Shown here piece after piece: positions 6,975 through 64,000 of a stretch of 64,000 nt of DNA. Source of the stretch: Lingula anatina (lineage: Eukaryota > Animalia > Brachiopoda); NCBI GenBank assembly GCA_051362555.1, contig CM120648.1:16984587-17048586 (forward strand). The letters are read 5' to 3'. A program made the position numbers and the translations under genes. Position 1 is the first letter of the stretch. Each line of letters begins with the position of its first letter. The notes under the pieces are model-generated. The model did not search any database, had not been told where the DNA came from, and saw only the letters and a list, made by a program, of their open reading frames with translations.

Positions 6975-7014
<40 letters not shown>

Positions 7015-11279: not shown

Positions 11280-11294
11280 AGTATGTAAACCTGA

Positions 11295-19800: not shown

Positions 19801-21689
19801 AACCTTTGAGCCCTTGCACTATTTTGTTGTTGTTATTATTTTTATTTAAATTATTGTGTGAATAAAATGGGCTACTTTTCAATTATTTTTTAAATTATTG
19901 TCTAATAAAATAGGCTGGTATGTGACACGAGTTGTTTTAATTGTGTCACTAAATATATATATAAAAAGTTTTGAGTTTTCAACATCCAATTGAGCCAACA
20001 TTATTTGAATCATATTGACCATTGGGAATGGGAATGAATCGGGTAATTTGGTATACACAATCCATGGGACAGACTCCCAAATACATGAGACTTATACCCA
20101 TATTTTTGGCGTGTAACCTTCACAATCGGGTAATATTAGCATCGTCAATTCCCCTGAGATAGAGTACATGTATACACACTAACACATACCCCAACAGGAA
20201 CAACTGGTTATGCTAGTTGGTATAAATCGGGTTGGATCAGAATAATTGAATCAGAGTCAGTCGCATTGATCAGATGCGAGAGAAGTCTCATCAAATATCT
20301 GAATCCTATCACATGGTTGTCACTGTTTGGGAATGGCCTGGCCAAATATGTGGGAAAGACAGTAGGATCTCTTTAGGTTATGTCACTGGTACATTTACCT
20401 TAATCTACTAACTGTTCTCCACTTAAGGTCTAGATGAGATGGTACATCAGGAAATTTAGCCCATATTTTAGGAGTAATGCTGCTATGCTTACATATACCC
20501 CTTAGGCCAAATAATTCCTTCCAAAGAGCACACATCTTTTGTAATGGCCAGTCTAAAATTTACAGAAACAGAACCTCTGAGACAGATCTCAAATAATTTT
20601 AAACTGAATTCTACCCCTTTAGGTTATACAATACTATGACCAAAAATTATTTATTTCCAAACTGGAAGTACTGTACATATGTGCATTTTCCTTATTTATT
20701 TTGGAGACAATTAACATGCCAGCTGGTGAAACTACAAAGCCAATGGTTTTTATTACAAAAACTACTTTTGACTTTTACATTATTTGGGTAGAAATTTTAT
20801 CAAATATCACCTTTAAACCAAACTGAAATCTAAATTACCCATATAAATTATTCCCTGTCTCAAAAATTGTCAAATGTAAAAATAGATGAAAACATCACAC
20901 TTGTGGCCAACCAGCTGTAGTGTGGTTAATTGTTTAGAAATCCATTTATTGATTCTATTATACGGATAGGGTTATAGAAAGAATTAATATATTTGTTCCT
21001 TGCTTGACTTGGGTAAAGTAAAAGTAACCAAAGCAAAGCAAAACAATGCCTGACAAATCACAGGCTAACTAAGAGCCTCCTTACTTGAAAAAATTATAAG
21101 AGATACAAAACAGGAAATTACAAATAAAGAGTTAGAGGACAAAGAAAAAGATACAGACTAAATACAAATTATGAAAGATTTTGGTCTAATAACAGCAGGA
21201 AAAGGAAAGGAAAAGAAAGAAGAAAAGAAAAAGAAAAGAAAAGGTGAAATTCAGAAAGGATGATGATAAGGAGAAGAATATTAATGATAATGACATGATT
21301 TTTTAACATGGCATGGAAAATAGATAAAGGCATGATTAACGAGATTCTGTTCAGGTTTTGCTCTGAGAGATGACTGCTCTTGTCTACGGTCTTTGTTCAG
21401 TGATGTTAACTCTCCCTTTTTATAAACTCACAGCACCTACAGCCAAGCCTAGACACACTCAGCCACTGCTACACAAGAGGATAGGTTGTCCCCATTTCCT
21501 CCCTCCACCAAATTCAAATGGACAAGCTGTATTATATTATTATTTCTCCCTTCCTTCTCTGACCAGCAGAGTTGTTAGAGAGATTTTAATTTTTAAGCTT
21601 TTGCCCACAAGAACCAGCAGAGTTCGGAACATTTGATAGGACAGCCCCCAACGAAGCATCCGATAGCTGATATAGCCAGTAAGGAACCC

Positions 21690-23657
21690 TCCGTTGGACC
21701 ACCATGAGACTAGCTTCATATGCCCAGCACCGGACCGAGGAACATCTGTGATTAAAAGATCATTGTTAACCATCATTACTTCCCAAAGACAATGCAAATT
21801 GGTTTTTATCTTACTGACCAACTACTATGAACAGGGTTTACAAGGATGCAGTTGCTTACCCTGGCCCCAGTCAGTTTAATTATTCCCAACGTTGCCTCTA
21901 GGGCTTGTTGGAAAAACTGACATTGTTCATAGCATCCTCTATTGATGTAAAGTGAGACAAACGTGCATATTTTCCCATCTCCCGATCCAAACACCCCCAA
22001 AAGAATTTTGTAATACATTCCTTTAAGGTGAATGATTCAGGTAGATCTAGGAACACGTCTGTGGCCAGAAAGAAAACCTACATGTAGCATGTCCACTCAT
22101 TTAAAGATTAGTTTGGGGATTTTTACTGCTTGATAGAACTTTGTATGTGAAATTTCTGGGAGATTTCCCCTTTGAAACAGTGTTAAGCTCACTGATCAAG
22201 GCAGTAAAAAGAATTGGAGCACAGTGATTTGGTGTATAAGTTAATGATGTTACATCTTGAGCTCCAATGTATATACTGGTAATCTTTGCACTAATTTTTC
22301 CATCCACCCATTTACCTCCCTGTAGCTTTGGAACACTCATCTTAAGTCTTCTCAGTCCTCCTCATTTTTAAAGGATTTTTAAGAAGATCTAAAGAACTTC
22401 CCCTTTTTTTATATATATATACATGGGGATGTGTAACCTCGGCTTGGAGAAAGGTGGAGGTTTTTCACTGACTTTGGAAAGCCCTGTATATTTTGAGAAC
22501 TTTCTTCATCCTTAGGCAAATAAGATGGTTTAATTTTTATTGCCCTTTCTGACTCAATAACGTTTAAGAGTAGGAAAAGTGGATGAGAATTCTCAACAGG
22601 ATTTTCTTCAGTCAGAGCTGCTGTACCCAATGGTTTTGAGAATCCACTAATAGTTGGATGGGGGACACTGGGCACATCACCTGGAGCAGGTTTATTCCCC
22701 CACCAGGTTCAGCACCCTGTGTATTAAATTGGTTTGGGTTTAAAGATTTTTAGAAATTTGTCCAAATATTGGGGGCTACCAGGCACCAGAATAAGCATGT
22801 TGGGATTAGTGCCTGATGTTTGAAAGGGATGGGTTGTAAAGTGGGGGTAAATTTTGGGTTGGATTTCTCAAGTTTGGTAGCAAATCATCAAGATCAGGGT
22901 TGGGAAACTGTCACCAAAAACCTGCTTGAATTAAGGGATTTGTTGATGTTAAATATCCTAAAGGGTAAATAAATTATGAATTTTAAAAGAAGGTAACAGC
23001 TGATGTTTTTTCCCTTCCCAAAATGTTCACTATTCCAATAACATTGGGCTGGGGGAAAGTGCAGAAATTAATTGGCAAAGACTACAGTATGTAATTTCAT
23101 CCATATCTTTCTCAAACTCCTGAATGTCCAGTAATGATATGCTGTTTTTAAATATATATTTTTGATTGAGTATTACACTTGTATTTGGGTGGCTTACTTT
23201 AAACTTTTACTTAAACTTTACACTAGAATTTTAATTTTGTTTTATAAACAAAAAAAATTTATAACTTTGTTATTTTGAGTTGTTCACTATACTTTAATAA
23301 TTGTTAAATTTCAGCTGTTTGTTCATTACTTATAACATCAGATAATGAGAAATCAATAGATGTGGGGAATTGCATTAGCTCTTTGTGGACAGGTTTAGGC
23401 ATCATAAATGGAAGAGGTTGGGGAGAAATAATGTATTTTGGGTTTTGCCCTCTTTAAAATATTGATAAAATTTCGAAGAATAAAAATAGGGCAACATTTT
23501 AGATTTAGTTTTGACCAAAATTTTTGTGCTCATCCAAGAAGATACCTTATTATTACTCCTGAAATCTAAAAGAGCTTCTGCATGCTTTTGACCTATACCA
23601 GGCACTCTAATTAGCTCATCATAGGTAGGTAAGATCTACCTTAGATCCCATTGACAT
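21690..23657 (-). pseudogene. Decayed gag remnant with N-terminal helix-hairpin-helix motif
   Basis: First ORF position after the PBS/leader. It reads MSMGSKVDL-(frameshift)-TYDELIRVPGIGQKHAEALLDFRS (ComEA/HhH_3-like). Downstream are fragments such as DREMGKYARLSHFTSIEDAM and a possible zinc-knuckle trace GHMK near 21715. Confidence 0.55.
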
Positions 23658-24454
23658 TGTTATAACTTGACAAGTCAAAGGTCACACTAACCCAGCATAT
23701 TTCTGTAAAAGAGGCACTTCCTGTCCCCAATTAGTGTGCGAGTTAATCAGAAGACCTGTCTTCTTGTGATCCGGAACTTTCAGATTCACTGAGAAGGTCA
23801 GGGGGAAAGTCAAAAATAGGGCTGAGGGGTATTTTGTAAAAGACAATGGAATGGGCAATGTGAATATATACTGCTGTCTGTTCTTGGGCTAAATGTAGCC
23901 GGAAATACAATAAATGAAGTCAAAGGTTCACTTTTGACCTTAAAACTAGGTAAAAATTGAAAATAAATGTAAACCCAAAAATACCTTCCCTCAAAAATTT
24001 ATTCAAATTTCCCCGAAAAACTTCACCCTAACCAAAGAAATAAGAAACTTTACCCTGAATAAATCTCCAAATATGGTAAATTCTAAGATAAATTTTATAA
24101 AAATAAACCCTTACCTTTAAAAAACAGATGCTAGCAGTATATATTAGGGGATCACTACCAATTAGTCTGGGGGGCCTCATGTTATCCCCAAGAATAAGTG
24201 AGATTACTTTATAATCAAATTTAGATGAAAGAATTTCCTTTTAATCTTTAAATTTAGTAACCAAAATCATTACTTTCATATACCACCAAATGGACGTACG
24301 TTGGACAATAAAAAGTATTGCCACCCCTGCACACGGATCGTGGAGTTAAATAAACTTTCACTCCCCCCACCTATCCAAAATTGGCGGCAGACAAAGGAAT
24401 TTAAAAATTTCTTACACCAAAAATTGATCAAAGAACAGGAAACGGGATCGGTTT

Positions 24455-24466
24455 TCCTTGTCGCCA
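24455..24466 (-). promoter_or_regulatory. Primer-binding site, probably tRNA-Ser(GCU)
   Basis: TGGCGACAAGGA, 2 nt inside the 5' LTR. It matches the complement of the usual eukaryotic tRNA-Ser(GCU) 3' end (TGGCGACGAGGA) at 11/12 positions (recalled, not searched). Confidence 0.65.
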
Positions 24467-24468
24467 AA

Positions 24469-24875
24469 TGAAGTGAACCCGAGTGGCTAAAGTCACTTAT
24501 TCTTGTGATAACTACAGTCTAACTAGCAGTGATACACATAAAGGCGGCTGTCACGCCCTGATCAGGGGCGTAGACCGCTTACCTTATATTCCACTTATAG
24601 GAATCCTGGTACGGTCTCACAACCGCTCCATGATCAATATCCACTATGGCACTATTGCTGAATGTCAGCTATAGTGGTATAATTAAGTAGGTATGGTATT
24701 GGTCAAGGAATACTCGCAGATTGTGGATTTGACGCCCAAGGTGTGTTCTGTCCGGTGTCTCGTAGTCGAGTGTTAGTCAATTCATATCACGCGCTTCTTC
24801 AGCGTGTGTCGACACCTGGATGGCGCTTCTTCAAGACAGCCCACAACCTTAACATACTGGTTCACAATCACAACA
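24469..24875 (-). repeat. 5' LTR of non-autonomous element copy 1
   Basis: Identical by eye to 17607-18013. Confidence 0.93.
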
Positions 24876-34442: not shown

Positions 34443-34476
<34 letters not shown>

Positions 34477-43567: not shown

Positions 43568-43635
<68 letters not shown>

Positions 43636-47106: not shown

Positions 47107-47142
<36 letters not shown>

Positions 47143-48861: not shown

Positions 48862-49275
48862 TGAAGTGAACCCGAGTGGCTAAACTCACTTATTCTCGTG
48901 ATAACTACAGTCTAAATGATAGTGATACACAAAGGCGGCTGACACACCCTGATCAGGGGCATGAACAACTTACCTTTAAATTTCCACTGTCTGGACTCCT
49001 ATGCAAACTTCAAAAAGCTCCTAGTCTGTCACTACAATCTGTACCAATTGGATCTGTCTAGTAGGAAGAACTTAGGAATATTTGCTTAGTGAAGAATATA
49101 TACAAAGGAGGTGCTGATCCTACGGAGGTGTCTCTCTAGCGAGGTCGCTCAGTGGAATGGTTGAGTGAAGATAGCTCTCAAATTTTCCGCTGTCTATCTC
49201 ATACTGCTAGGTGGCGCAACATCATATTAATAGATGGCGCTTTATTCAATACAAGCCACAACCGTAATCACAACA
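48862..49275 (-). repeat. 3' LTR (414 bp) of the TatD-Gypsy element
   Basis: TGAAGTGAACCCGAGTGGCTAAA...AATCACAACA. The first ~100 bp and last ~10 bp match the 407-bp LTR and the middle is unrelated. Followed by TTCCCCCCCA. Confidence 0.85.
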
Positions 49276-49488
49276 TTCCCCCCCATTTTCTTTTAAAAAA
49301 GATTGGGAACCCGCCCAATTTGGAATAAAAAAGGGGAATGAAATTTATGAAATTATAGGACCAGCCTTTTGAAAATGAAAAATGGGACCAGCCCATAATT
49401 TATAATGGTGATGAATATGTACAAGGAGTTCCCCAAATTCCTTTTAAACCATAGGTCCAGCCTATGGAAAATTAAAAAATAATGATAA

Positions 49489-50948
49489 ATTTTATTAGAC
49501 AATAATTTAAAAAATAATTGAAAAGTAGCCCATTTTATTCACACAATAATTTAAATAAAAATAATAACAACAACAAAATAGTGCAAGGGCTCAAAGGTTG
49601 GTGCAGTAAAAGTCAACATCTGATTGGGATTCGGCTTTATTTTTGATCAGAAAATGTGACAGTAGTGCGTGGTGGTGTTATTATCATCGTGTACTACCTA
49701 ATTATGTGATGGTGAATGACATTTCCTCTTCCCCTTATGGAAGATTGCCTAAATACATTAGCAGGAAAACTTGAGTTTCTAAAATTGACGGCAATTCTGT
49801 TTTTAGACAGAAGATGTCAATAGGAAACCAGTTAATAACTGCTTTTGTGGCAAAATAAGGACTAGAAAAGGGGTTAAGGGCTCACTAATACCCCGCTATC
49901 TCTAGATTTGTAAGTCTGTTACAGAGGGGTTCCATATGGAAGACAGAATTTGCATACCTAGATGATATTCTGGTCAAAGGAAAGTCTTATTTCACTTATC
50001 ATGTCACTGATCTGAAGGAGGTTTTAGAGAGATACACAAAATACACAATAATAATTATTTATAAAATTTATTTCTTCCAGTACAGTATCAAGGTTCAAGT
50101 TTTGCAGTAAATGTATAGGTCCTCATTTGTAAATTTATATTTATATTTGTGTGTTTGTGCATATTAAAGATATATTGCACATCAAATATTTAATAAATTC
50201 AGACTTCAAAACAGTTTGGAATTAAAACTGGAGTTTATCAATAACCAAATCATTGAAAAAGTAGCAAAATAACTTTCTATAAAAAATTTCTTTTTTTTTT
50301 TGTTTTTGGGGAGGAAATCCCTTATCTTATTTTTTTATAAAATCTCTCAACCTCTGTATACACATCATTTGACCGGGAAGTAACTTTTTATCTGAGACTT
50401 GGACTGTGAGGGTGCAATTGTCATATTGAAAAGGTTTTGGCTGAACCATCAGAGTTGGCCATACCTGCAATTGGTACAGTATTAACCCCCAAGAACTACT
50501 GAACATAGTGAGGTTTACTCACCAATCTAAATGCTACCTGTTTGGGGAGAATAGACTTACAATCAGAAAAGATTGCTAACATCTGAATTCTGGTAGTTCT
50601 GGTGAGGAATACTTCATTTGGTAGTTTTAACAGTTCAATGCCTCAGAGGGAGAATCACCAAAATAAGTTAGCATTTTCCAAATTTTGCTCAGTTTCATTT
50701 ACAATTTGGATGAATACCTGCATAAAAAAATGTATATATGTATGTATGTATATATGTATATATTTGTGTATATGTAATATATATATTTTATTTATATGTT
50801 TATTGCACAATTGCACTTTTCCTTTGCATAAATCAAAATCTGGGTATTCTCCGAATTGGATGAATTAGGTATAAGTCCTGATACAGGGGATCTAGTCCAG
50901 TATGCCCATGGAGAGGTTCCCTTGACTGAGAATTGGTAAGAAATGCAA
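49489..50948 (+). repeat. 1460-bp inverted copy of the non-autonomous element interior
   Basis: Reverse complement of 51797-53256 (and of 18452-19911). The 88-aa ORF MRNTSF... appears on + at 50602 and on - at 52143 and 18798. Confidence 0.93.
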
Positions 50949-50951
50949 TCA

Positions 50952-53900
50952 TGGAGTGAACCCGAGTGGCTAAAGTCACTTATTCTTGTGATAACTACAG
51001 TCTAACTAGCAGTGATACACATAAAGGCGGCTGTCACGCCCTGATCAGGGGCGTAGACCGCTTACCTTATATTCCACTTATAGGAATCCTGGTACGGTCT
51101 CACAACCGCTCCATGATCAATATCCACTATGGCACTATTGCTGAATGTCAGCTATAGTGGTATAATTAAGTAGGTATGGTATTGGTCAAGGAATACTCGC
51201 AGATTGTGGATTTGACGCCCAAGGTGTGTTCTGTCCGGTGTCTCGTAGTCGAGTGTTAGTCAATTCATATCACGCGCTTCTTCAGCGTGTGTCGACACCT
51301 GGATGGCGCTTCTTCAAGACAGCCCACAACCTTAACATACTGGTTCACAATCACAACATTCCCCCCCATTTTATAATAATTTTTTTTTTAAAAAAGGGAC
51401 CATCCCAATTTTGCATATTTTCTAAAATGGGGAATATACACGTTTAAAAATTGAAGGACCAGCCTTGAAATGCTTGAACTTATAAAAATTTTAATTTAAA
51501 AGATTGTTATAAAAAGATTCCCCAAATTCCTTTTAAAACAATATCCCCGAATTCCTTTTAAAAACAATAGGACCAGCCTATTATATGTTTAAACAAATGG
51601 GACCAGCCCATTAATTTAAATGTTATAGTCTTTGGGGATATATAATAAAATGGTCTCTGGTTTAACTCTGTATGTTTTTGGAGAGAGTCAATTTAACTAC
51701 AATCTCCAAGCAGAGTATCAACCAGATTTCGGATCATCACCTTTGGCTGAATAAATGAAAATAAATGGCATTTTTTATTTATTCACCACAGTTATCTTGC
51801 ATTTCTTACCAATTCTCAGTCAAGGGAACCTCTCCATGGGCATACTGGACTAGATCCCCTGTATCAGGACTTATACCTAATTCATCCAATTCGGAGAATA
51901 CCCAGATTTTGATTTATGCAAAGGAAAAGTGCAATTGTGCAATAAACATATAAATAAAATATATATATTACATATACACAAATATATACATATATACATA
52001 CATACATATATACATTTTTTTATGCAGGTATTCATCCAAATTGTAAATGAAACTGAGCAAAATTTGGAAAATGCTAACTTATTTTGGTGATTCTCCCTCT
52101 GAGGCATTGAACTGTTAAAACTACCAAATGAAGTATTCCTCACCAGAACTACCAGAATTCAGATGTTAGCAATCTTTTCTGATTGTAAGTCTATTCTCCC
52201 CAAACAGGTAGCATTTAGATTGGTGAGTAAACCTCACTATGTTCAGTAGTTCTTGGGGGTTAATACTGTACCAATTGCAGGTATGGCCAACTCTGATGGT
52301 TCAGCCAAAACCTTTTCAATATGACAATTGCACCCTCACAGTCCAAGTCTCAGATAAAAAGTTACTTCCCGGTCAAATGATGTGTATACAGAGGTTGAGA
52401 GATTTTATAAAAAAATAAGATAAGGGATTTCCTCCCCAAAAACAAAAAAAAAAAGAAATTTTTTATAGAAAGTTATTTTGCTACTTTTTCAATGATTTGG
52501 TTATTGATAAACTCCAGTTTTAATTCCAAACTGTTTTGAAGTCTGAATTTATTAAATATTTGATGTGCAATATATCTTTAATATGCACAAACACACAAAT
52601 ATAAATATAAATTTACAAATGAGGACCTATACATTTACTGCAAAACTTGAACCTTGATACTGTACTGGAAGAAATAAATTTTATAAATAATTATTATTGT
52701 GTATTTTGTGTATCTCTCTAAAACCTCCTTCAGATCAGTGACATGATAAGTGAAATAAGACTTTCCTTTGACCAGAATATCATCTAGGTATGCAAATTCT
52801 GTCTTCCATATGGAACCCCTCTGTAACAGACTTACAAATCTAGAGATAGCGGGGTATTAGTGAGCCCTTAACCCCTTTTCTAGTCCTTATTTTGCCACAA
52901 AAGCAGTTATTAACTGGTTTCCTATTGACATCTTCTGTCTAAAAACAGAATTGCCGTCAATTTTAGAAACTCAAGTTTTCCTGCTAATGTATTTAGGCAA
53001 TCTTCCATAAGGGGAAGAGGAAATGTCATTCACCATCACATAATTAGGTAGTACACGATGATAATAACACCACCACGCACTACTGTCACATTTTCTGATC
53101 AAAAATAAAGCCGAATCCCAATCAGATGTTGACTTTTACTGCACCAACCTTTGAGCCCTTGCACTATTTTGTTGTTGTTATTATTTTTATTTAAATTATT
53201 GTGTGAATAAAATGGGCTACTTTTCAATTATTTTTTAAATTATTGTCTAATAAAATAGGCTGGTATGTGACACGAGTTGTTTTAATTGTGTCACTAAATA
53301 TATATATAAAAAGTTTTGAGTTTTCAACATCCAATTGAGCCAACATTATTTGAATCATATTGACCATTGGGAATGGGAATGAATCGGGTAATTTGGTATA
53401 CACAATCCATGGGACAGACTCCCAAATACATGAGACTTATACCCATATTTTTGGCGTGTAACCTTCACAATCGGGTAATATTAGCATCGTCAATTCCCCT
53501 GAGATAGAGTACATGTATACACACTAACACATACCCCAACAGGAACAACTGGTTATGCTAGTTGGTATAAATCGGGTTGGATCAGAATAATTGAATCAGA
53601 GTCAGTCGCATTGATCAGATGCGAGAGAAGTCTCATCAAATATCTGAATCCTATCACATGGTTGTCACTGTTTGGGAATGGCCTGGCCAAATATGTGGGA
53701 AAGACAGTAGGATCTCTTTAGGTTATGTCACTGGTACATTTACCTTAATCTACTAACTGTTCTCCACTTAAGGTCTAGATGAGATGGTACATCAGGAAAT
53801 TTAGCCCATATTTTAGGAGTAATGCTGCTATGCTTACATATACCCCTTAGGCCAAATAATTCCTTCCAAAGAGCACACATCTTTTGTAATGGCCAGTCTA

Positions 53901-56900
53901 AAATTTACAGAAACAGAACCTCTGAGACAGATCTCAAATAATTTTAAACTGAATTCTACCCCTTTAGGTTATACAATACTATGACCAAAAATTATTTATT
54001 TCCAAACTGGAAGTACTGTACATATGTGCATTTTCCTTATTTATTTTGGAGACAATTAACATGCCAGCTGGTGAAACTACAAAGCCAATGGTTTTTATTA
54101 CAAAAACTACTTTTGACTTTTACATTATTTGGGTAGAAATTTTATCAAATATCACCTTTAAACCAAACTGAAATCTAAATTACCCATATAAATTATTCCC
54201 TGTCTCAAAAATTGTCAAATGTAAAAATAGATGAAAACATCACACTTGTGGCCAACCAGCTGTAGTGTGGTTAATTGTTTAGAAATCCATTTATTGATTC
54301 TATTATACGGATAGGGTTATAGAAAGAATTAATATATTTGTTCCTTGCTTGACTTGGGTAAAGTAAAAGTAACCAAAGCAAAGCAAAACAATGCCTGACA
54401 AATCACAGGCTAACTAAGAGCCTCCTTACTTGAAAAAATTATAAGAGATACAAAACAGGAAATTACAAATAAAGAGTTAGAGGACAAAGAAAAAGATACA
54501 GACTAAATACAAATTATGAAAGATTTTGGTCTAATAACAGCAGGAAAAGGAAAGGAAAAGAAAGAAGAAAAGAAAAAGAAAAGAAAAGGTGAAATTCAGA
54601 AAGGATGATGATAAGGAGAAGAATATTAATGATAATGACATGATTTTTTAACATGGCATGGAAAATAGATAAAGGCATGATTAACGAGATTCTGTTCAGG
54701 TTTTGCTCTGAGAGATGACTGCTCTTGTCTACGGTCTTTGTTCAGTGATGTTAACTCTCCCTTTTTATAAACTCACAGCACCTACAGCCAAGCCTAGACA
54801 CACTCAGCCACTGCTACACAAGAGGATAGGTTGTCCCCATTTCCTCCCTCCACCAAATTCAAATGGACAAGCTGTATTATATTATTATTTCTCCCTTCCT
54901 TCTCTGACCAGCAGAGTTGTTAGAGAGATTTTAATTTTTAAGCTTTTGCCCACAAGAACCAGCAGAGTTCGGAACATTTGATAGGACAGCCCCCAACGAA
55001 GCATCCGATAGCTGATATAGCCAGTAAGGAACCCTCCGTTGGACCACCATGAGACTAGCTTCATATGCCCAGCACCGGACCGAGGAACATCTGTGATTAA
55101 AAGATCATTGTTAACCATCATTACTTCCCAAAGACAATGCAAATTGGTTTTTATCTTACTGACCAACTACTATGAACAGGGTTTACAAGGATGCAGTTGC
55201 TTACCCTGGCCCCAGTCAGTTTAATTATTCCCAACGTTGCCTCTAGGGCTTGTTGGAAAAACTGACATTGTTCATAGCATCCTCTATTGATGTAAAGTGA
55301 GACAAACGTGCATATTTTCCCATCTCCCGATCCAAACACCCCCAAAAGAATTTTGTAATACATTCCTTTAAGGTGAATGATTCAGGTAGATCTAGGAACA
55401 CGTCTGTGGCCAGAAAGAAAACCTACATGTAGCATGTCCACTCATTTAAAGATTAGTTTGGGGATTTTTACTGCTTGATAGAACTTTGTATGTGAAATTT
55501 CTGGGAGATTTCCCCTTTGAAACAGTGTTAAGCTCACTGATCAAGGCAGTAAAAAGAATTGGAGCACAGTGATTTGGTGTATAAGTTAATGATGTTACAT
55601 CTTGAGCTCCAATGTATATACTGGTAATCTTTGCACTAATTTTTCCATCCACCCATTTACCTCCCTGTAGCTTTGGAACACTCATCTTAAGTCTTCTCAG
55701 TCCTCCTCATTTTTAAAGGATTTTTAAGAAGATCTAAAGAACTTCCCCTTTTTTTATATATATATACATGGGGATGTGTAACCTCGGCTTGGAGAAAGGT
55801 GGAGGTTTTTCACTGACTTTGGAAAGCCCTGTATATTTTGAGAACTTTCTTCATCCTTAGGCAAATAAGATGGTTTAATTTTTATTGCCCTTTCTGACTC
55901 AATAACGTTTAAGAGTAGGAAAAGTGGATGAGAATTCTCAACAGGATTTTCTTCAGTCAGAGCTGCTGTACCCAATGGTTTTGAGAATCCACTAATAGTT
56001 GGATGGGGGACACTGGGCACATCACCTGGAGCAGGTTTATTCCCCCACCAGGTTCAGCACCCTGTGTATTAAATTGGTTTGGGTTTAAAGATTTTTAGAA
56101 ATTTGTCCAAATATTGGGGGCTACCAGGCACCAGAATAAGCATGTTGGGATTAGTGCCTGATGTTTGAAAGGGATGGGTTGTAAAGTGGGGGTAAATTTT
56201 GGGTTGGATTTCTCAAGTTTGGTAGCAAATCATCAAGATCAGGGTTGGGAAACTGTCACCAAAAACCTGCTTGAATTAAGGGATTTGTTGATGTTAAATA
56301 TCCTAAAGGGTAAATAAATTATGAATTTTAAAAGAAGGTAACAGCTGATGTTTTTTCCCTTCCCAAAATGTTCACTATTCCAATAACATTGGGCTGGGGG
56401 AAAGTGCAGAAATTAATTGGCAAAGACTACAGTATGTAATTTCATCCATATCTTTCTCAAACTCCTGAATGTCCAGTAATGATATGCTGTTTTTAAATAT
56501 ATATTTTTGATTGAGTATTACACTTGTATTTGGGTGGCTTACTTTAAACTTTTACTTAAACTTTACACTAGAATTTTAATTTTGTTTTATAAACAAAAAA
56601 AATTTATAACTTTGTTATTTTGAGTTGTTCACTATACTTTAATAATTGTTAAATTTCAGCTGTTTGTTCATTACTTATAACATCAGATAATGAGAAATCA
56701 ATAGATGTGGGGAATTGCATTAGCTCTTTGTGGACAGGTTTAGGCATCATAAATGGAAGAGGTTGGGGAGAAATAATGTATTTTGGGTTTTGCCCTCTTT
56801 AAAATATTGATAAAATTTCGAAGAATAAAAATAGGGCAACATTTTAGATTTAGTTTTGACCAAAATTTTTGTGCTCATCCAAGAAGATACCTTATTATTA

Positions 56901-57821
56901 CTCCTGAAATCTAAAAGAGCTTCAGCATGCTTTTGACCTATACCAGGCACTCTAATTAGCTCATCATAGGTAGGTAAGATCTACCTTAGATCCCATTGAC
57001 ATTGTTATAACTTGACAAGTCAAAGGTCACACTAACCCAGCATATTTCTGTAAAAGAGGCACTTCCTGTCCCCAATTAGTGTGCGAGTTAATCAGAAGAC
57101 CTGTCTTCTTGTGATCCGGAACTTTCAGATTCACTGAGAAGGTCAGGGGGAAAGTCAAAAATAGGGCTGAGGGGTATTTTGTAAAAGACAATGGAATGGG
57201 CAATGTGAATATATACTGCTGTCTGTTCTTGGGCTAAATGTAGCCGGAAATACAATAAATGAAGTCAAAGGTTCACTTTTGACCTTAAAACTAGGTAAAA
57301 ATTGAAAATAAATGTAAACCCAAAAATACCTTCCCTCAAAAATTTATTCAAATTTCCCCGAAAAACTTCACCCTAACCAAAGAAATAAGAAACTTTACCC
57401 TGAATAAATCTCCAAATATGGTAAATTCTAAGATAAATTTTATAAAAATAAACCCTTACCTTTAAAAAACAGATGCTAGCAGTATATATTAGGGGATCAC
57501 TACCAATTAGTCTGGGGGGCCTCATGTTATCCCCAAGAATAAGTGAGATTACTTTATAATCAAATTTAGATGAAAGAATTTCCTTTTAATCTTTAAATTT
57601 AGTAACCAAAATCATTACTTTCATATACCACCAAATGGACGTACGTTGGACAATAAAAAGTATTGCCACCCCTGCACACGGATCGTGGAGTTAAATAAAC
57701 TTTCACTCCCCCCACCTATCCAAAATTGGCGGCAGACAAAGGAATTTAAAAATTTCTTACACCAAAAATTGATCAAAGAACAGGAAACGGGATCGGTTTT
57801 CCTTGTCGCCAAATGAAGTGA
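50952..57821 (-). mobile_element. Non-autonomous LTR element copy 2 (one full LTR, interior, only 8 bp of the second LTR)
   Basis: Collinear with copy 1 at a constant offset of 33345 (all ORF-track entries duplicated). At least one substitution (23579 T vs 56924 A). It ends at TGAAGTGA 57814-57821. Confidence 0.93.
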
Positions 57822-57975
57822 TATCATGGAATATTTTTCCTTTGCATAAAAATTGCTTTACTTGTTAACTAAAATATGGGACAATTCTTCCCTTTTTGAT
57901 ATAAACAGTTTGTACAAACTATGTACATGAAAATAAATATATCTATAATAATGGTGCAATATTCTACATTAGTGC

Positions 57976-58016
<41 letters not shown>

Positions 58017-58150
58017 TATATATTTTTTTTTTCTTTTTGTTTTTTGTTCTATATTCATATATACAAATGTAAAAAACTAAATAAAAAGCTGTACTTTGTA
58101 ATTTGGTAAGATGGTATATATATATTTTGGTAAGATGGTAAATGACCAGT

Positions 58151-60706
58151 TTACTCATTTTGGTATAATTTAATACCATTTGTGACAGTAATGTCGAGTA
58201 TATGCCTAACCTCGACACCCCTAGCCTCTGCTATGATTTCCGCTGTCTCAAACAGCAAATATGGTGTAGAAGCCCTGATGTTTTGGGCATGAAAATATGG
58301 TGCGTCAGATTCCAAGAGTAGTTTACACTCCGGGACAGCTTTGACCGCCTCCAACTGGGATTTGTTGAAGGTATTCACCAGCCTGGTGAAGCCAAAGTAC
58401 GTGTTGTAATAAACACGCAACCACATCTCCATGAGCTGCTTGCTCCCTGTAAAACAGTGGAAATGGATGGGCTGATGCTCAGGGATGTTGTTCCTTTGAA
58501 GGATTGACAACAGATGCCTGATGGCATACACACAGTCACCACTACCCATCCCACGACAATGCAGCACTAACACCTTGCTGTCAACTACTGAGGGCAGTAA
58601 ATCATTAAGCAGATCTTCCTGATCCTGCCAGACATGGGAGGACTCTGAGAAATCGAGACCAACCTCTCCTATGGCTTGGACATGTGAATCTTTAACCAAC
58701 GTCCTGAAGTCTTTGAGATACTGTTCCCGCAAAGCAGGGGATTGGATGGCCTTTTTCGGATGAAATCCAATAGCTATGTGCATGTTCTCCGGCTTAGTTA
58801 GCAAGGCACTCCGAGTTGGATACCTCTCCGGATCACAATACACCGCTACCGAACCCACCAGATTGACCTCCTTACCCTCTGGCACAGGAACTTTCTCCCT
58901 CAGATTCTCCAGGGTTCCATTGGACGGCAGATTATAAGCTTGGAGAGTCCTGTCCAAGTGGAAATGGCTATCGAAAGCCTGGACTCCGACTCCCATCACT
59001 ACGTCTGCCACTGTTGTCCTCTGGATACCTGCAGGCACCTTGAAATTATTGAGCCATAAATCCCGTTGGACTGGATTCATGCATGAAGCTAGCTTCAGCA
59101 CAGCTCGCCAATGTACAAGTGCACCCACAGAGTTGGCTGGCTTTAGGGTTACTTGCTGGGGCAGAGTGACACCAAGCTCTTTACAGAAGGCTTGCATGGC
59201 TTGCCGTTGGGCTTCGCCAAACCCCCTGATCTTTTTGAGGCCAAATTTTTCGCCTGATGCAGATATAAAATCGCATAGGCTTTGTAAAGGTTTATTAATG
59301 CCAAAAATGAGCGATGTGGCGCACTCCAATGCTTTCACCCTAAGAGCCACGATTTCAGGGATGGTACCCAAACCCTCGTCAAAAATTTCAGGTATATGGG
59401 TCATAGCATGTACCTTGACTGCACCCCTTTCAATATTGGGGTCACTACATCCAGGGACCTGACATTTTGTCATTTTGGGTTCAACCTTAGCCACTTTTAG
59501 GCTAGGTTCCCCCACAGACTCAATCAGAGATTCTCGTTTCCGAGATTCCCCAGATGCAGCCACAGTCGCTGGCTTCTGCACAGACTGACCTGACTTGGAC
59601 GATTTTGCTGATTTGGGCTTTCTTTTCTTCTTTCTGCTTTTTCCGGATTGGGATTTCTCCCCCGTACTCGCAGATTCAGAAAAGGGATTGATGCTTTTTC
59701 CGGTTTGGGATACTTGCCCAACTGAATGGGCTTTCTCCCCCGTACTAGGCAAGGAAGGGAAGGAAAGGCTTTTTCCGGTTTGGGATACTTGCCCAACTGA
59801 ATGGGCTTTCTCCCCCGTACTAGGCAAGGAAGGGAAGGAGAGGCTCATTAAGGATGGAATTGGCCTTTTAATCTGTTTTCCGGTTTGGGATACTTGCCCA
59901 ACTGAATGAGCTTTCTCCCCCGTACTGGCAGGCTCTTGTTTTCCGGCTTGGGATACTTGCCCAACTGAATGGGCTTTCTCCCCCGTACTAACATAGACAG
60001 AAGCAGAAGATGGGGGTGGTAAATTCGCGGCAATACGCGCCAAGGCTGCCCTTCTACTACCCTCCATGGAATACACAAGGCTTGGGGACTTTTCCAAAGG
60101 AGACTCACGGGGTTTAGGGCTCCCTTTGGTAGCAGATCCATCTGAGGATCCAAGCAATTCCGAAGAATTGCCAGACTCCCCAGAATAGACCTCCCCCTCC
60201 AGGATGTCCACCTCCATGGCCTCTGCTGATGTTGAAGGAACTGGTGTGGAAGTCCCCCCTCCCCCAGACACCACAAAAGAGGTTTGGGTAATAGTGGGGT
60301 CAGTTCCCAACCTTATATCCCTGACTGGTCCCGAGAAAACACTTGGCTCCCCAATAGGTTTGGGTCGCACTGGTTTCCTGGATTTCCCAGTCTTAGGATT
60401 AGGTGGGAGTTTGGAGATATGTTTTTCCACCCAATTTCTATTGGAAATCCCCTTGGAGAGTACCTCAGACGCCAATTCGCGCAGCCATGAGTAATACTCA
60501 CCCTTCTTCTTAGCTTTGGCCATTTGGATTTTACACAAGTCCACTACATCTAATACTGACTGTTGGATTTTGTCAGTTTTACCGGGCAGAGCTTCTACAA
60601 GATTTTGGACAAAGTCCCCGGCTTGGATGGCTGGGAATACACGGAATTTCTTCCATATTTCCAATTCATCCAGAACTTTACTCTTGGACTGTTGCTGCTG
60701 GGCCAT
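58151..60706 (-). CDS. tatD: Retrotransposon ORF3: 851-aa protein with Ser/Gly-rich repeats, C2H2-like finger and C-terminal TatD metal-dependent nuclease domain
   Basis: TatD motifs in order: DSHFH, IGFHP, AIGEVGLD, VLHCR, HFHCFTG, YFGF, LLESDAPY. Uninterrupted ORF between pol and the 3' LTR. Confidence 0.9.
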   Translation of the reverse strand: MAQQQQSKSKVLDELEIWKKFRVFPAIQAGDFVQNLVEALPGKTDKIQQSVLDVVDLCKIQMAKAKKKGEYYSWLRELASEVLSKGISNRNWVEKHISKLPPNPKTGKSRKPVRPKPIGEPSVFSGPVRDIRLGTDPTITQTSFVVSGGGGTSTPVPSTSAEAMEVDILEGEVYSGESGNSSELLGSSDGSATKGSPKPRESPLEKSPSLVYSMEGSRRAALARIAANLPPPSSASVYVSTGEKAHSVGQVSQAGKQEPASTGEKAHSVGQVSQTGKQIKRPIPSLMSLSFPSLPSTGEKAHSVGQVSQTGKSLSFPSLPSTGEKAHSVGQVSQTGKSINPFSESASTGEKSQSGKSRKKKRKPKSAKSSKSGQSVQKPATVAASGESRKRESLIESVGEPSLKVAKVEPKMTKCQVPGCSDPNIERGAVKVHAMTHIPEIFDEGLGTIPEIVALRVKALECATSLIFGINKPLQSLCDFISASGEKFGLKKIRGFGEAQRQAMQAFCKELGVTLPQQVTLKPANSVGALVHWRAVLKLASCMNPVQRDLWLNNFKVPAGIQRTTVADVVMGVGVQAFDSHFHLDRTLQAYNLPSNGTLENLREKVPVPEGKEVNLVGSVAVYCDPERYPTRSALLTKPENMHIAIGFHPKKAIQSPALREQYLKDFRTLVKDSHVQAIGEVGLDFSESSHVWQDQEDLLNDLLPSVVDSKVLVLHCRGMGSGDCVYAIRHLLSILQRNNIPEHQPIHFHCFTGSKQLMEMWLRVYYNTYFGFTRLVNTFNKSQLEAVKAVPECKLLLESDAPYFHAQNIRASTPYLLFETAEIIAEARGVEVRHILDITVTNGIKLYQNE
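59652..59990 (-). repeat. Coding repeat STGEKAHSVGQVSQ(T/A)GK, four copies plus a partial fifth, within ORF3
   Basis: TTTCTCCCCCGTACT recurs five times, in frame. Confidence 0.9.
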
Positions 60707-60733
60707 CTGAAATGATAAATGAACACACAGATT

Positions 60734-63700
60734 TTAGGTTATATGTTGTTCAGTTTGTTTGCAACGAGGACATTTATATTTATCAATATCCAAGGCATCA
60801 GTCACTGTGATATTAACACAGGACCCATGATACCATTCATCGCAAAAATCACACTGAATCATGAACCGTCCACCATATGGTTCTCTACAAACACAATATA
60901 AAGTGGTGTCAGTAGTATCATTAAGAGTGTCAGTTTGAGATTTCCTTGCATTATGCGCCTTTATCCATGCTGGAATTCTCCTATCAGTGCAGGGTTTCAA
61001 CAGATCATGGTTTAAGACGACAAGGGCATTCTTTAACTTTACTCTATACAGATATGAGCTCAGCTTAGCCTCAATGATTCCAGGTCCTTTCCATGGTGAG
61101 TGTAGCTTGCGAGATTTGCCTTTAGGTGTTGATTTGTCTAATACATAGACAAGATCCCCTTCACCATAAAGTCGGAGTAAGATCTTAAGGTCATAATCCC
61201 GCTTCATTCTCCTTGATGTAGATTGGAGTCTCTCTCTGGCTGTTGTATGAGAATGTTGTATTCTTTGCACCAGGTCAGCCACAAATTCACCATAATCCTG
61301 GTGTTGCTTACTTGTTTCATGGGGAAACATCAGATGGGCTGGGATATTAACTTCCCTCCCTAACATGAGCATATTGGGCGTGTACCCTGTGCTCCGGTTA
61401 ATGGTTGATCTTATAGCCCCTGCTATTTGTTGGATGTATTTATCCCATTCATGTTGATCCTTGCGGATGAAACAACGAACAGCATCCATGATGGTACGGT
61501 TAAACCTCTCCACCTGGCCATTAGCGGAAGGTCTATAGGGTGTAGTTCGGGATTTGTGAATGCACAAAGCACGACACATAGCAGCAAACAATTTACTTTC
61601 AAAATTTCGCCCCTGGTCCGAGAATATATTAAGTGGATATCCAAATTTAGAGAAAAAATTATCGATTGCCGCTTTAGCTGTAACCTCAGCTGTTTGTGAA
61701 GGCAAAGGCACACACTCTACCCATTTGGTGAACTGATCAACCATAACAAGGCAATACTCATGTCCGTTTGATGTTTTTGGTAGAGGTCCCATGAAATCAA
61801 TATGGACCCTTTCCATTGGGGCTCCAGCTCTGTACTCAATTAGAGGTACTCTCCCATAAGCGTCCTTTTTCTTGTTTTGGTTACAAGAGTCGCAAGTGTT
61901 AATAAAGTTTTCTACATCTTTATTGAGATTGACCCAGTAAAATTTTTCTTTCAGGCGGAATTTGGTACGGGAGATTCCTTGATGACCAGAAGTGGGTATA
62001 TCATGGTGTAGGGATAAAATTTCATTTTTTAAACTAGCTGGAATTACTAGTTTCTGGTCATCTGCTTTGATGTTCTTTTTGTAAATAACGCCATGTGAAA
62101 GAATGAAAAATTCTTTGTTAAGCCAGTAACACTTTGCAACAGGACTGCTTGCGAAGAGTTCTCCCTTTTCAGGACTTTTACCTGTTAGCAACCATTGTCG
62201 GAGATGACCTAAATCAGGGTCTTTTTCTTGTTCTTCTTTTAAGGTATCAACAGAATAACCCCAACATTGTAATGATGAATTTTGACTGGAGTCTTGAATG
62301 GGGGCAATAGATGTTAATTTGACCTCCCCTGTTGAACTTAAAATTTGTATAGAAGGCCCATGAGTTTGGTTGTGGCATTCATCCCAGTTGCTAATAAGAT
62401 TGAGTACGAGCTGTGAAATACAGTCAATTTGGGGACTTTGTCTTTCTGGGAAATTCAGACTGTCACTACCATGTGAAGCATGACTCACCACATTTACGTC
62501 AGAAGCAAGGTTAATTGCGTCATCCACGTTTTCAAAGAATTCTCCCCAATTTTTGTGGGCACGTTCACAAAACTTGCAACCGCCACAAGGGAGATCTTTG
62601 GGTTTTAGGCCGGCAATATAATTAGAACAGGGAGCTAACCGATCTGGTTTTCTAGAAAGGGTGTCGGCATTAGTATGTTTTTTACCAGACCGGTGGGTAA
62701 TGATCATGTGGTATTGAGATAACTCCTCAATCCACCTGGCTAGCTGCCCCTGTGGATCTTTGAAACGCAATAACCAAGTCAGGCTGGAATGATCTGTTCT
62801 GACAGTAAACACTCTTCCCAAAAGATAGTATTTAAATTGGCGAGTAAACCTCACAATACTCAGTAGTTCTTTTCGGGTAGTGCAGTATTTTCTTTGCTCA
62901 GGGGTCAGGACATAGCTACCATAGGCAATAACTCTTTCCCGACCATTCTGGACTTGGATTAATTCTGCACCAATTGCAACATCTGAAGCATCAGTATCCA
63001 AAATGAATGGATCTGTATCATTAGGCAAAGCTAACACAGGTGGTTCAGCTAAAGCCCTTTTTAATGCAACAAATGCTCCCTCACAGTCTGAGTCCCAGAT
63101 AAAAGGTTTGTTCCCGGTCAGTTGATACAAAGGCTGAGAGATTTCTCCAAAATTTTTGATAAAAGTGCGATGATAATTTACTAAACCCATAAACCTTTCT
63201 ACTTCTTTTGAATTTTTGGGCTTTGGCCATGACTGGACTGTTTCTATATCTTTTAAATTCATTTTCAATTCACTGTTAGAGACCACCCTCCCTAGGAATT
63301 CTACTTCTTTCTGAAAAAATAAGCACTTTCTTGCCTTTAGCTTTATCCCGTATTTTCGAAATCTCTCTAAAGCCTCTGTCAGATTAGTGACGTGATCAGC
63401 AAAAGACTTTCCCATGACCAGAATGTCATCCAGGAATGCCAGAACTGTCTTCCAAGTGAGACCCCTCATTAACAGATTGACAACCCTGGAAAATGTTGCA
63501 GGGGCATTTGTGAGCCCAAACCCCATTTTACAATGTTCAAACAGGCCATATTTTGTCACGAAAGCAGTTTTCTTTTGGTCTTCTTTTTTGATTTTAACCT
63601 GCCAATAAGCAGAGTTGGCATCAATTTTGGAGAACCAATTATTTCCTGCCAAAGTATCGAGACAATCTTCCATAAGGGGAAGAGGGAATGTGTCTTTCAC

Positions 63701-64000
63701 TGTCACATTGTTTAGTGCACGATAATCGATACACCACCGTACACTACCGTCACGTTTTCTGATCAAAACAGGAGCTGACGCCCAATCAGATGTAGATTCT
63801 TGAATAACACCAGCCTTTAACATTTTATTTAGGTGTTCTTCTTCTTCATTAACAAAACAGGCTGGTGTGCGGCGCATGCGTTGTTTGATGGGCCTTGCAT
63901 CGCCTGTATCAATTTCATGTTCAATTTCTGTAAAATTGCCAAGATCATAATCATGCTTTGCAAAAACATCTTGGTATTCTTGTAAAATTTGAAATAAAAT
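60734..64000 (-). CDS. pol: Gypsy Pol polyprotein (RT, RNase H, integrase, C-terminal PHD finger), 5'-truncated by the window
   Basis: The frame stays open to 64000 (ILFQILQEYQDVFAKH...). RT: RWCIDYRALN, MGFGLTNAPATF, AFLDDIL. RH: LDTDAS, TDHSSL. IN: HHDIPTSGH...CDSC, HIDFMGP, SDQGRNF, NGQVERFNRT. PHD: YCVCREPY...CDFCDEWYHGSC...CPRC. Confidence 0.97.
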   Translation of the reverse strand: MLFQILQEYQDVFAKHDYDLGNFTEIEHEIDTGDARPIKQRMRRTPACFVNEEEEHLNKMLKAGVIQESTSDWASAPVLIRKRDGSVRWCIDYRALNNVTVKDTFPLPLMEDCLDTLAGNNWFSKIDANSAYWQVKIKKEDQKKTAFVTKYGLFEHCKMGFGLTNAPATFSRVVNLLMRGLTWKTVLAFLDDILVMGKSFADHVTNLTEALERFRKYGIKLKARKCLFFQKEVEFLGRVVSNSELKMNLKDIETVQSWPKPKNSKEVERFMGLVNYHRTFIKNFGEISQPLYQLTGNKPFIWDSDCEGAFVALKRALAEPPVLALPNDTDPFILDTDASDVAIGAELIQVQNGRERVIAYGSYVLTPEQRKYCTTRKELLSIVRFTRQFKYYLLGRVFTVRTDHSSLTWLLRFKDPQGQLARWIEELSQYHMIITHRSGKKHTNADTLSRKPDRLAPCSNYIAGLKPKDLPCGGCKFCERAHKNWGEFFENVDDAINLASDVNVVSHASHGSDSLNFPERQSPQIDCISQLVLNLISNWDECHNQTHGPSIQILSSTGEVKLTSIAPIQDSSQNSSLQCWGYSVDTLKEEQEKDPDLGHLRQWLLTGKSPEKGELFASSPVAKCYWLNKEFFILSHGVIYKKNIKADDQKLVIPASLKNEILSLHHDIPTSGHQGISRTKFRLKEKFYWVNLNKDVENFINTCDSCNQNKKKDAYGRVPLIEYRAGAPMERVHIDFMGPLPKTSNGHEYCLVMVDQFTKWVECVPLPSQTAEVTAKAAIDNFFSKFGYPLNIFSDQGRNFESKLFAAMCRALCIHKSRTTPYRPSANGQVERFNRTIMDAVRCFIRKDQHEWDKYIQQIAGAIRSTINRSTGYTPNMLMLGREVNIPAHLMFPHETSKQHQDYGEFVADLVQRIQHSHTTARERLQSTSRRMKRDYDLKILLRLYGEGDLVYVLDKSTPKGKSRKLHSPWKGPGIIEAKLSSYLYRVKLKNALVVLNHDLLKPCTDRRIPAWIKAHNARKSQTDTLNDTTDTTLYCVCREPYGGRFMIQCDFCDEWYHGSCVNITVTDALDIDKYKCPRCKQTEQHIT

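What the first reader, a model, noticed from the sequence alone, without database searches (positions are those of the whole stretch)
58151..60706. Gypsy LTR retrotransposon carrying an intact TatD nuclease gene in the env slot
Seen: an uninterrupted 851-aa ORF lies between pol and the PPT/3' LTR on the same strand, with no obvious signal peptide or TM segment, so it is not Env. Its C-terminal ~275 aa (~58151-58978) keep every TatD metal-ligand motif (HxH, GE.GLD, LH, HCF, E.D.P). Established: TatD/TATDN proteins are TIM-barrel 3'-5' exonucleases/AP endonucleases acting on ssDNA/RNA, and they are not a standard LTR-retrotransposon component. Inference: a captured nuclease kept under selection. 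It might trim or proofread cDNA ends, clear RNA:DNA hybrids or aberrant cDNA that would trigger cytosolic nucleic-acid sensors, or antagonise competing elements. It could also explain multi-copy TatD-like annotations in such genomes.
Basis: partly seen in the sequence, partly recalled or inferred. Interest (0 to 1): 0.92.

Follow-up and report, generated by a model that had tools for sequence, protein, structure and literature searches.

The report
Gypsy retrotransposons carrying a TatD nuclease
A branch of Gypsy jumping genes in marine invertebrates carries, where a viral coat gene would sit, a conserved TatD nuclease gene that is joined at splice sites to the element's terminal repeat and is related to the germ-line enzyme TATDN2, so it likely clears RNA-DNA tangles (R-loops) to keep the element active, although no activity has been tested.

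Summary
Confirmed and extended. ORF3 (58151-60706, minus, 851 aa) follows a Gypsy pol (RT-RNase H-integrase-PHD) and ends in a TatD domain with all seven metal/catalytic residues; a database label names the host as the brachiopod Lingula. It is an element gene, not a chance neighbour: 16 of 23 related contigs have integrase/PHD directly upstream (2 more other retroelement parts, 5 too short); the elements form one pol clade (100/100); TatD dN/dS is 0.13-0.16; all 22 open copies keep the catalytic set. A contig joins the LTR splice donor to the AG right before the ORF3 start, at about nine times the depth of the unspliced side: an env-like subgenomic message, which also shows that the LTR at 48862-49275 belongs to this family, although an 8.3-kb insert separates it from ORF3 here. 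The nuclease is sister to animal TATDN2, an R-loop RNase. Function is inferred only: R-loop or nascent-RNA clearing outside the particle is most likely. Nearest precedent: rotifer DEDDy-exonuclease ORF3s. No paper on TatD in LTR elements was found; Repbase/Dfam were not checkable. This scan noted the same layout earlier in a sea urchin.

The parts
58151..60706 (-). ORF3, 851 aa: helical N-domain, disordered linker, zinc-finger-like/helical domain, TatD nuclease
58160..58975 (-). TatD domain (aa 578-849) with H581, H583, E681, H716, H750, E799, D801
   Evidence: Pfam PF01026 E 8.7e-39; residues; fold
59027..59464 (-). Conserved C-x4-C...H-x3-H motif (C415, C420, H433, H437; zinc binding inferred) plus helical domain with an H-W motif (aa 415-560); no Pfam name
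   Evidence: conserved in 84-86 of 100 aligned rows; well modelled
59477..60391 (-). Disordered Ser/Lys-rich linker with internal tandem repeats (59646-59990) and a basic stretch at aa 356-365 (possible nuclear localisation signal, inferred)
   Evidence: low pLDDT; repeats; composition
60392..60706 (-). N-terminal helical domain (aa 1-105), conserved in long-type relatives (invariant W74, W92), no clear structural match
60707..60733 (-). Pyrimidine tract and splice acceptor AG directly before the ORF3 ATG
   Evidence: sequence; contigs of runs X4 and X6 branch here; same signal in relatives
60734..64000 (-). 3' part of Gypsy pol, open 1088 aa: RT, RNase H, integrase, C-terminal PHD finger (60761-60895); continues beyond the window
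   Evidence: an X1 contig runs 4376 nt past the window end
57822..58150 (-). Start of the 3' untranslated region; in runs X1, X4 and X6 it continues past 57821 into sequence absent from the window
49489..57821 (-). Insert interrupting the 3' end: 50952-57821 is a 99.97% copy of the non-autonomous element at 17607-24875, lacking most of its 5' LTR; 49489-50948 is an inverted duplicate of 51797-53256
49276..49294 (-). Polypurine tract before the LTR
48862..49275 (-). 3' LTR of the TatD element family (414 bp, TG...CA), holding the splice donor (exon ends at 48974) used from the 5' LTR copy
   Evidence: the X6 contig joins this sequence to 60707
17607..24875 (-). Related non-autonomous LTR element: identical 407-bp LTRs, 4-bp TSD, decayed gag (HhH remnant) and pol, no TatD

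Best explanation
ORF3 is an accessory gene of an old Gypsy clade, joined at splice sites to the element's LTR and kept by purifying selection, whose TatD domain is sister to animal TATDN2 and likely works as a magnesium-dependent RNase that clears R-loops or nascent RNA at the element's own copies in the host nucleus. Shown: position after pol, intact catalytic set, LTR-donor-to-acceptor junction, clade-wide linkage, dN/dS about 0.14, sister relation to TATDN2 against prokaryotic TatD. Inferred: one ancient capture into an ORF3 slot that in neighbouring clades holds zinc-finger-type proteins; translation apart from Gag-Pol and so action outside the particle; nuclear entry and RNA binding through the basic, Arg/Ser-rich linker; benefit through uninterrupted transcription, less RNA-guided silencing and less DNA damage in the germ cells that carry the element. 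Identity and architecture about 0.97; the R-loop mechanism is the confidence given.
For: Linkage: 16 of 23 retro-type TatD contigs in two contaminated metagenome bins have integrase and/or PHD directly upstream on the same strand, 2 have other pol/gag parts, 5 are too short; 8 show gag, pol and ORF3 on one contig. The 12 best matches to the window's integrase-PHD (11 contigs) are all TatD elements; 0 of 40 further contigs carry TatD or PHD. RT-RNase H tree: TatD+PHD elements one clade, 100/100. TatD and integrase identities co-vary over 12 elements, rho 0.71, permutation p 0.0006. Catalytic set intact in 22 of 22 open bin copies and 78 of 91 database relatives. dN/dS 0.13-0.155 in the 5 measurable pairs. 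Splicing: X6 contig (depth 271) leaves the window at 60708 into LTR sequence ending at the donor; unspliced side depth 29; acceptor within 15 nt of the ORF3 ATG in 8 of 12 elements against 225 of 2623 ATGs overall. Stranded RNA run X14 covers pol and ORF3 on the sense strand. TatD tree: element copies one clade (98/87), sister to TATDN2 (100/97); profile scores TATDN2 155-183 bits, best prokaryote 146, TATDN3 60, TATDN1 51. TATDN2 degrades the RNA of R-loops and needs its long disordered N-terminus to bind them (PMC10711561); it is needed in fish germ cells (PMC12709183 abstract).
Against: No activity, localisation or protein evidence. ORF3 is only about 30% identical to TATDN2 and is its sister, not nested in it, so substrate may differ; TATDN1 and TATDN3 were not in the tree. 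6 of 91 relatives have catalytic substitutions, among them the representative of a 182-member cluster (P0037), and one apparently complete element inside the wider clade (L152) lacks ORF3: the enzyme is not always needed. The splice junction is seen in assembled contigs of runs only guessed as 'DNA?'; no listed raw-read row shows it (12 and 31 loose-end rows hidden), so a DNA copy of a spliced RNA is not excluded. All dN/dS pairs come from the bins, none from this window's family. The two bins probably represent few host species.
Confidence: 0.42

Rival explanations
1. ORF3 is an anti-silencing RNase acting on small or structured RNAs (piRNA precursors, siRNA hairpins, tRNA fragments that compete at the primer site) rather than on R-loops.
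For: [quoted passage not shown] Unrelated 3'-5' exonucleases (DEDDy) were captured into the ORF3 slot at least twice in rotifers (PMC5408684), which points to a shared RNA-trimming need. ORF3 message exceeds the genomic message about nine-fold in X6.
Against: No small-RNA data here. Mature piRNAs carry a protected 3' end (own knowledge). The rotifer paper found no clear link of such ORFs to copy number.
Confidence: 0.25
2. ORF3 is packaged with Gag-Pol and trims, proofreads or cleans cDNA and primers during reverse transcription.
For: Bacterial TatD is a 3' exonuclease on single-stranded DNA and RNA (as cited in PMC10711561). ORF3 co-diverges with pol. Its zinc-finger-like and basic regions could bind the genomic RNA and be co-packaged (inference).
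Against: Separate spliced message, no frame link to pol; pol keeps its RNase H; TATDN2 shows little DNA activity and minimal activity on plain RNA-DNA duplex; neighbouring clades replicate without TatD.
Confidence: 0.17
3. The TatD domain mainly binds rather than cuts, or serves host-cell DNA repair (abasic sites, integration scars), with ORF3 acting as an adaptor through its N-terminal and zinc-finger-like domains.
For: Two conserved non-TatD domains of unknown function; some families lose metal ligands; related clades carry zinc-finger-type ORF3s without a nuclease.
Against: [quoted passage not shown]
Confidence: 0.13
4. It is a host TatD gene or retrocopy lying next to a Gypsy element by chance, or an assembly join.
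For: RefSeq treats it as a host gene; the window's 3' region is rearranged.
Against: Same layout in 16 diverged contigs, an X1 contig spanning ORF3 and pol, an LTR-derived first exon, and dispersed near-identical copies in several bivalves.
Confidence: 0.01

Closest known systems
DEDDy 3'-5' exonuclease (and GDSL esterase) ORF3s of bdelloid rotifer Juno and Vesta LTR retrotransposons (PMC5408684; abstract and passages read)
   Same: Non-env enzyme with intact catalytic residues in the ORF3 slot; 3'-5' exonuclease type; function undemonstrated; the paper states that ORF3s are typically made from spliced messages.
   Different: Unrelated fold (TatD TIM barrel, not DnaQ-like); 'TatD' occurs 0 times in that paper's main text; here one old clade across brachiopod, bivalve, gastropod and sea-urchin labels, with measured purifying selection, an observed LTR-donor junction, a PHD on integrase and two extra ORF3 domains.
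Animal TATDN2 (PMC10711561: abstract and one results section; PMC12709183: abstract)
   Same: Closest cellular relative by tree and profile; long disordered basic N-terminal part before a C-terminal TatD domain; the two glutamates shown essential in human TATDN2 correspond by motif spacing to E681 and E799 (inferred).
   Different: About 30% identity; sister group, not a member; multi-copy, element-borne, with a zinc-finger-like/helical domain and a helical N-domain; activity untested.
env ORF3 of retroviruses and errantiviruses (own knowledge; an F-type env occurs in the distant element L189)
   Same: Position between pol and 3' LTR; subgenomic spliced message from a 5' donor to an acceptor at the end of pol.
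   Different: No signal peptide, transmembrane segment or fusion-protein match; the donor lies within the LTR.
Bacterial TatD/YcfH and human TATDN1/TATDN3 (PDB)
   Same: Fold (TM by target 0.72-0.82) and metal-ligand set.
   Different: Stand-alone 250-300 aa enzymes; lower profile scores than TATDN2.

Membership tests
TatD nuclease family (PF01026) | Profile score above the curated cut-off | tested here: met
   133.9 bits against 27
TatD nuclease family (PF01026) | TIM-barrel amidohydrolase fold | tested here: met
   model pLDDT 91.9; top Foldseek matches are TatD structures, E 1.6e-13
TatD nuclease family (PF01026) | HxH, E, H, H, E-x-D metal and catalytic residues | tested here: met
   H581 H583 E681 H716 H750 E799 D801
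TatD nuclease family (PF01026) | Metal-dependent nuclease activity | not testable with these tools
   needs an assay
TATDN2 orthologues | Nests inside the TATDN2 clade | tested here: not met
   5 TATDN2-type rows form their own clade (100/100); element copies are its sister
TATDN2 orthologues | Closer to TATDN2 than to other TatD subfamilies | tested here: met
   tree against 22 prokaryotic rows; profile bits 155-183 against 146, 60, 51; TATDN1/3 compared by score only
TATDN2 orthologues | R-loop RNase activity | not testable with these tools
   needs an assay
Gypsy/Ty3 LTR retrotransposon | pol order protease-RT-RNase H-integrase | tested here: met
   RT-RH-IN in the window; protease and gag in relatives L137, L146
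Gypsy/Ty3 LTR retrotransposon | TG...CA LTR preceded by a polypurine tract | tested here: met
   48862-49275 and PPT, tied to the family by the X6 junction
Gypsy/Ty3 LTR retrotransposon | Paired 5' and 3' LTRs with target-site duplication for this copy | not testable with these tools
   5' end outside the window, no genome held; terminal repeats of bin contigs are assembly cycles or tandem repeats, not proven LTR pairs
Named Gypsy clade (Mag A/B/C, CsRN1, Cigr, MolGy) | RT tree with reference elements | not tested
env-type ORF3 | Signal peptide, transmembrane anchor, fusion-protein homology | tested here: not met
   hydropathy peak 1.59, only TatD in Pfam
env-type ORF3 | Spliced subgenomic message | tested here: met
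   junction in assembled contigs, conserved acceptor; not seen in listed raw-read rows
Rotifer DEDDy ORF3 (Juno/Vesta) | DEDDy/DnaQ-like exonuclease domain | tested here: not met
   domain is TatD by Pfam and fold

The most novel reading that the evidence does not exclude
A widespread, ancient Gypsy clade of marine invertebrates encodes its own TATDN2-type R-loop RNase as a counter-defence, made in excess from an LTR-spliced message to strip nascent RNA from its own copies and so blunt RNA-guided silencing and germ-cell damage; its ORF3 slot is a zinc-finger-anchored cargo cassette. More remote, but not excluded by a sister-group tree, animal TATDN2 was itself domesticated from such an element.
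Probability: 0.3. Interest if true: 0.9.

Novelty: new variant of a known kind. Interest (0 to 1): 0.68.

Why it matters
Accessory genes of LTR retrotransposons other than env are barely understood. This one is old, under selection, strongly expressed as its own message and related to an enzyme with known biochemistry, so the open question of what enzymatic ORF3s do becomes directly testable with existing R-loop assays. It also means that many 'TatD', 'TATDN2-like' and 'uncharacterized' genes in brachiopod, mollusc and sea-urchin annotations, and some 'TatD family hydrolase' genes in symbiont genome bins, are transposon genes that can pass for host gene-family expansions or bacterial genes.

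Tried and rejected
No genome held for the window. Viral collection: 3 distant TatD loci, then none; BFVD gave one giant-virus TatD-like match. Search for fused proteins of 1491-4255 aa found none, weak evidence, since a 2227-aa fused model turned up. No RNA holder was listed by the run search. Runs X15 (11 reads, none above 95% alike) and X17 (mostly 85-95% alike) report other copies; X11 had reads on both strands. The other upstream exon seen at 60708 in X4 and the 3' continuation at 57821 are not in the window. The 39 listed ORF3 variants (of 398 differences) were about half synonymous, 5 of 7 in TatD; too selected to use. 5 of 10 close pairs had saturated dS. Fold searches for aa 1-560 gave no clear match (Foldseek none at E 0.001; best Z 7.9, generic helical, N-domain only; the zinc-finger-like domain was barely tested). 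Atlas: no feature hit; structure hits are TatD clusters, the best mostly molluscan. A 70-bp 'LTR' at 57814-57884 was considered and dropped: it does not match any LTR. Terminal repeats of bin contigs were first read as LTR pairs and then downgraded; the PBS/PPT scan there was only suggestive. Paper searches without a relevant TatD-retrotransposon paper; 'TatD' occurs 0 times in the main text of PMC2836005, PMC6238403, PMC8556966 and PMC5408684. No supplements were read; Repbase, Dfam, GyDB and subscription journals were not searchable and may hold a description.
Full report
OBSERVATION. The minus strand holds an open frame from ATG 60706 to the stop at 58151, 851 aa, 27 nt after the stop of a 1088-aa open pol fragment with RT, RNase H, integrase and a C-terminal PHD finger. 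Residues 578-849 match Pfam TatD (E 8.7e-39) with H581, H583, E681, H716, H750, E799 and D801 in place. The model of aa 410-851 is confident (pLDDT 91.9) and its best solved matches are TatD proteins. Nothing suggests an envelope protein: hydropathy peaks at 1.59 and Pfam finds TatD only. A protein 100% identical over the searched region is labelled as a Lingula anatina RefSeq gene model.

ANATOMY OF ORF3. Four parts: a helical N-domain (aa 1-105, pLDDT mostly above 90), a disordered Ser/Lys-rich linker with a basic stretch at aa 356-365, Arg/Ser-rich in the 7 relatives checked, a domain with C415, C420, H433, H437 and an H-W motif (conserved in 80-86 of 100 aligned rows; zinc binding is inferred), and TatD. 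The two non-TatD domains have no Pfam name and no clear structural match.

THE 3' END. Between them and ORF3 lies an insert: 50952-57821 is a 99.97% copy of a non-autonomous LTR element that also stands whole at 17607-24875 (identical 407-bp LTRs, 4-bp TSD), and 49489-50948 is an inverted duplicate of part of it. In runs X1, X4 and X6 the family's 3' region leaves the window at 57821 into other sequence, so the window copy is rearranged, or mis-joined, and has lost part of its 3' region. Its 5' LTR and TSD could not be checked.

EXPRESSION. The ATG is preceded directly by a pyrimidine tract and AG. In run X6 a contig of depth 271 covers ORF3 up to 60708 and continues with sequence identical to the LTR just 5' of a consensus donor (exon end 48974); the unspliced pol side has depth 29. 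This is an env-like subgenomic junction and ties that LTR to the family. Run X4 branches at the same acceptor to a different exon not in the window. Both runs are labelled 'DNA?' by guess; their assembled sizes (60-108 Mb against 469-635 Mb for X9 and X10) and the junction suggest RNA, but a DNA copy of a spliced RNA is not excluded, and no listed raw-read row shows the junction. Stranded run X14 covers pol and ORF3 thinly on the sense strand, 110 of 129 reads at least 99% alike. In relatives an acceptor lies within 15 nt of the ORF3 ATG in 8 of 12 elements, against 225 of 2623 ATGs in the same loci.

LINKAGE IN OTHER GENOMES. A motif scan of prokaryotic genome bins gave 21 loci, 8 of them in two bins titled Sedimenticola. 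These bins carry well over a hundred integrase matches (165), which I read as contamination by host-animal retroelements; the host was not determined. They hold 23 contigs with the retro-type TatD beside 4 ordinary bacterial TatD genes. 16 of the 23 have integrase and/or PHD directly upstream on the same strand, 2 have other pol or gag parts, and 5 are too short to test; 8 show gag, pol and ORF3 on one contig. The 12 best matches to the window's integrase-PHD region, on 11 contigs, are all TatD elements; none of 40 further contigs has TatD or PHD, though many end soon after pol. Indirect support: a 182-member cluster holds 7 ORF3 and 8 pol proteins among 15 listed although the two share no similarity; a Dreissena cluster holds ORF3 copies from scaffolds of several lengths, gag proteins and a 2227-aa model TatD-gag-RT-RNase H-TatD; five ORF3 and pol representatives share unusual contig lengths (16046, 9947, 9881, 8316, 6471; read by eye). 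Named hosts of ORF3 relatives: Mercenaria, Ruditapes, Dreissena, Pecten, Pinctada, Crassostrea/Magallana, Saccostrea, Nucella, Lytechinus. The best 150 clusters at 50% identity all score at least 311 bits, well above TATDN2 (155-183); some are the profile's own rows.

EVOLUTION. In the RT-RNase H tree (46 rows) the 9 TatD+PHD elements, the window among them, form one clade (100/100); with a PHD-less group that includes a short-type TatD element (L146) and L152, which looks complete but has no ORF3, they form a 12-row clade (100/97). The integrase tree (quick search only) agrees. In the TatD tree (57 rows) 23 long and 7 short element copies are one clade (98/87), sister to 5 TATDN2-type rows (100/97) against 22 prokaryote-type rows: one capture and a loss is the simplest reading. 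TATDN1 and TATDN3 were compared by profile score only (51 and 60 bits). Direction of transfer between host and element is not shown. TatD and integrase identities co-vary over 12 elements (rho 0.71, p 0.0006; 0.53, p 0.0014 without L146). All 22 open bin copies keep the seven residues; among 91 database relatives (TATDN2-type rows and the window's own gene left out) 78 keep them, 7 are truncated or gapped, and 6 carry substitutions. Of 253 pairs, 10 were over 55% identical and 5 had measurable dS, with dN/dS 0.13-0.155; two are far from saturation (dS 0.13, 0.23). Neighbouring clades often have an ORF3 too: I marked 13 by eye as C2H2-like; of 5 scanned, 3 gave zinc-finger matches below Pfam's cut-off, one a BTB domain and one nothing; more distant elements carry a GDSL esterase or an F-type env. 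Gag in this clade begins with a helix-hairpin-helix motif.

MECHANISM. Shown: a selected, catalytically intact, separately spliced TatD gene of TATDN2 kinship. [quoted passage not shown] ORF3 has the same plan, is not part of Gag-Pol, and pol keeps its RNase H. I therefore infer work outside the particle, most likely clearing R-loops or nascent RNA at the element's copies (0.42), ahead of small-RNA destruction (0.25), cDNA trimming in the particle (0.17) and a binding or repair role (0.13). None was tested.

COMPARISON AND NOVELTY. Enzymatic non-env ORF3s, including a DEDDy 3'-5' exonuclease, are described for rotifer Juno and Vesta elements (PMC5408684, abstract and passages; lead from earlier scan notes). 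TatD in an LTR element was not found in eight paper searches or in passages of the mollusc, annelid and Ginger surveys; supplements, Repbase, Dfam and GyDB were not seen. Earlier unchecked notes of this scan report the same layout and a subgenomic splice in a sea urchin, and J-domain/TatD and Rrp6-type ORF3s elsewhere; I reached the layout and splice before reading them. Verdict: real, a new variant of a known kind, interest 0.68.

Noticed in passing
window 17607-24875 and 49489-57821: A very young non-autonomous LTR element with decayed gag/pol is present twice (2 differences in 6870 bp). The second copy looks like a one-LTR circle opened near the LTR end, is flanked by an 8-bp direct repeat (50948-50955 and 57823-57830) and sits beside a 1460-bp inverted duplicate; real rearrangement or assembly artefact is open. 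Its LTR shares the splice donor and 3' 127 bp (85%) with the TatD family's LTR.
   Followed up: partly
window 60708 (run X4): A second upstream exon, not in the window, joins the same ORF3 acceptor: a second donor or another promoter.
   Followed up: partly
G001 and G002: Two species-representative prokaryotic genome bins contain over a hundred animal LTR retrotransposon contigs, annotated as bacterial 'TatD family hydrolase' or integrase genes.
   Followed up: partly
L158, L161, L163, L164, L167-L170, L174, L176, L180, L183, L184: Neighbouring Gypsy clades carry ORF3s that start with C2H2-like zinc fingers, one with a BTB domain (L184); L187 has a GDSL esterase ORF3 and L189 an F-type env.
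   Followed up: partly
P0494: A pol of this clade has an RNA 2'-phosphotransferase (Tpt1/KptA) domain inserted between integrase and PHD, E 4e-43; an ORF3 protein (P0069) comes from a contig of the same length.
   Followed up: no
L137:2795-5089; window 23405-23635: Gag of this clade starts with a helix-hairpin-helix DNA-binding motif; a remnant survives in the non-autonomous element.
   Followed up: partly
P0060, P0072, P0067: Some ORF3 proteins add a CCHC zinc knuckle or a Myb/SANT domain in the linker; the latter may be a gene-model fusion.
   Followed up: no
P0037 cluster (182 members): A high-copy family whose representative has replaced two metal-binding histidines of TatD.
   Followed up: no
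window 28836-48723: Tandemly duplicated exons of a major-facilitator transporter gene (Pfam MFS_1 at 43772-44170; copies 74-88% alike at 33546-37519 and 43764-48723) surround the elements.
   Followed up: no
window 1697-3748, 6596-7330, 11150-13600: Satellite arrays of 146, 11 and 72 bp.
   Followed up: no
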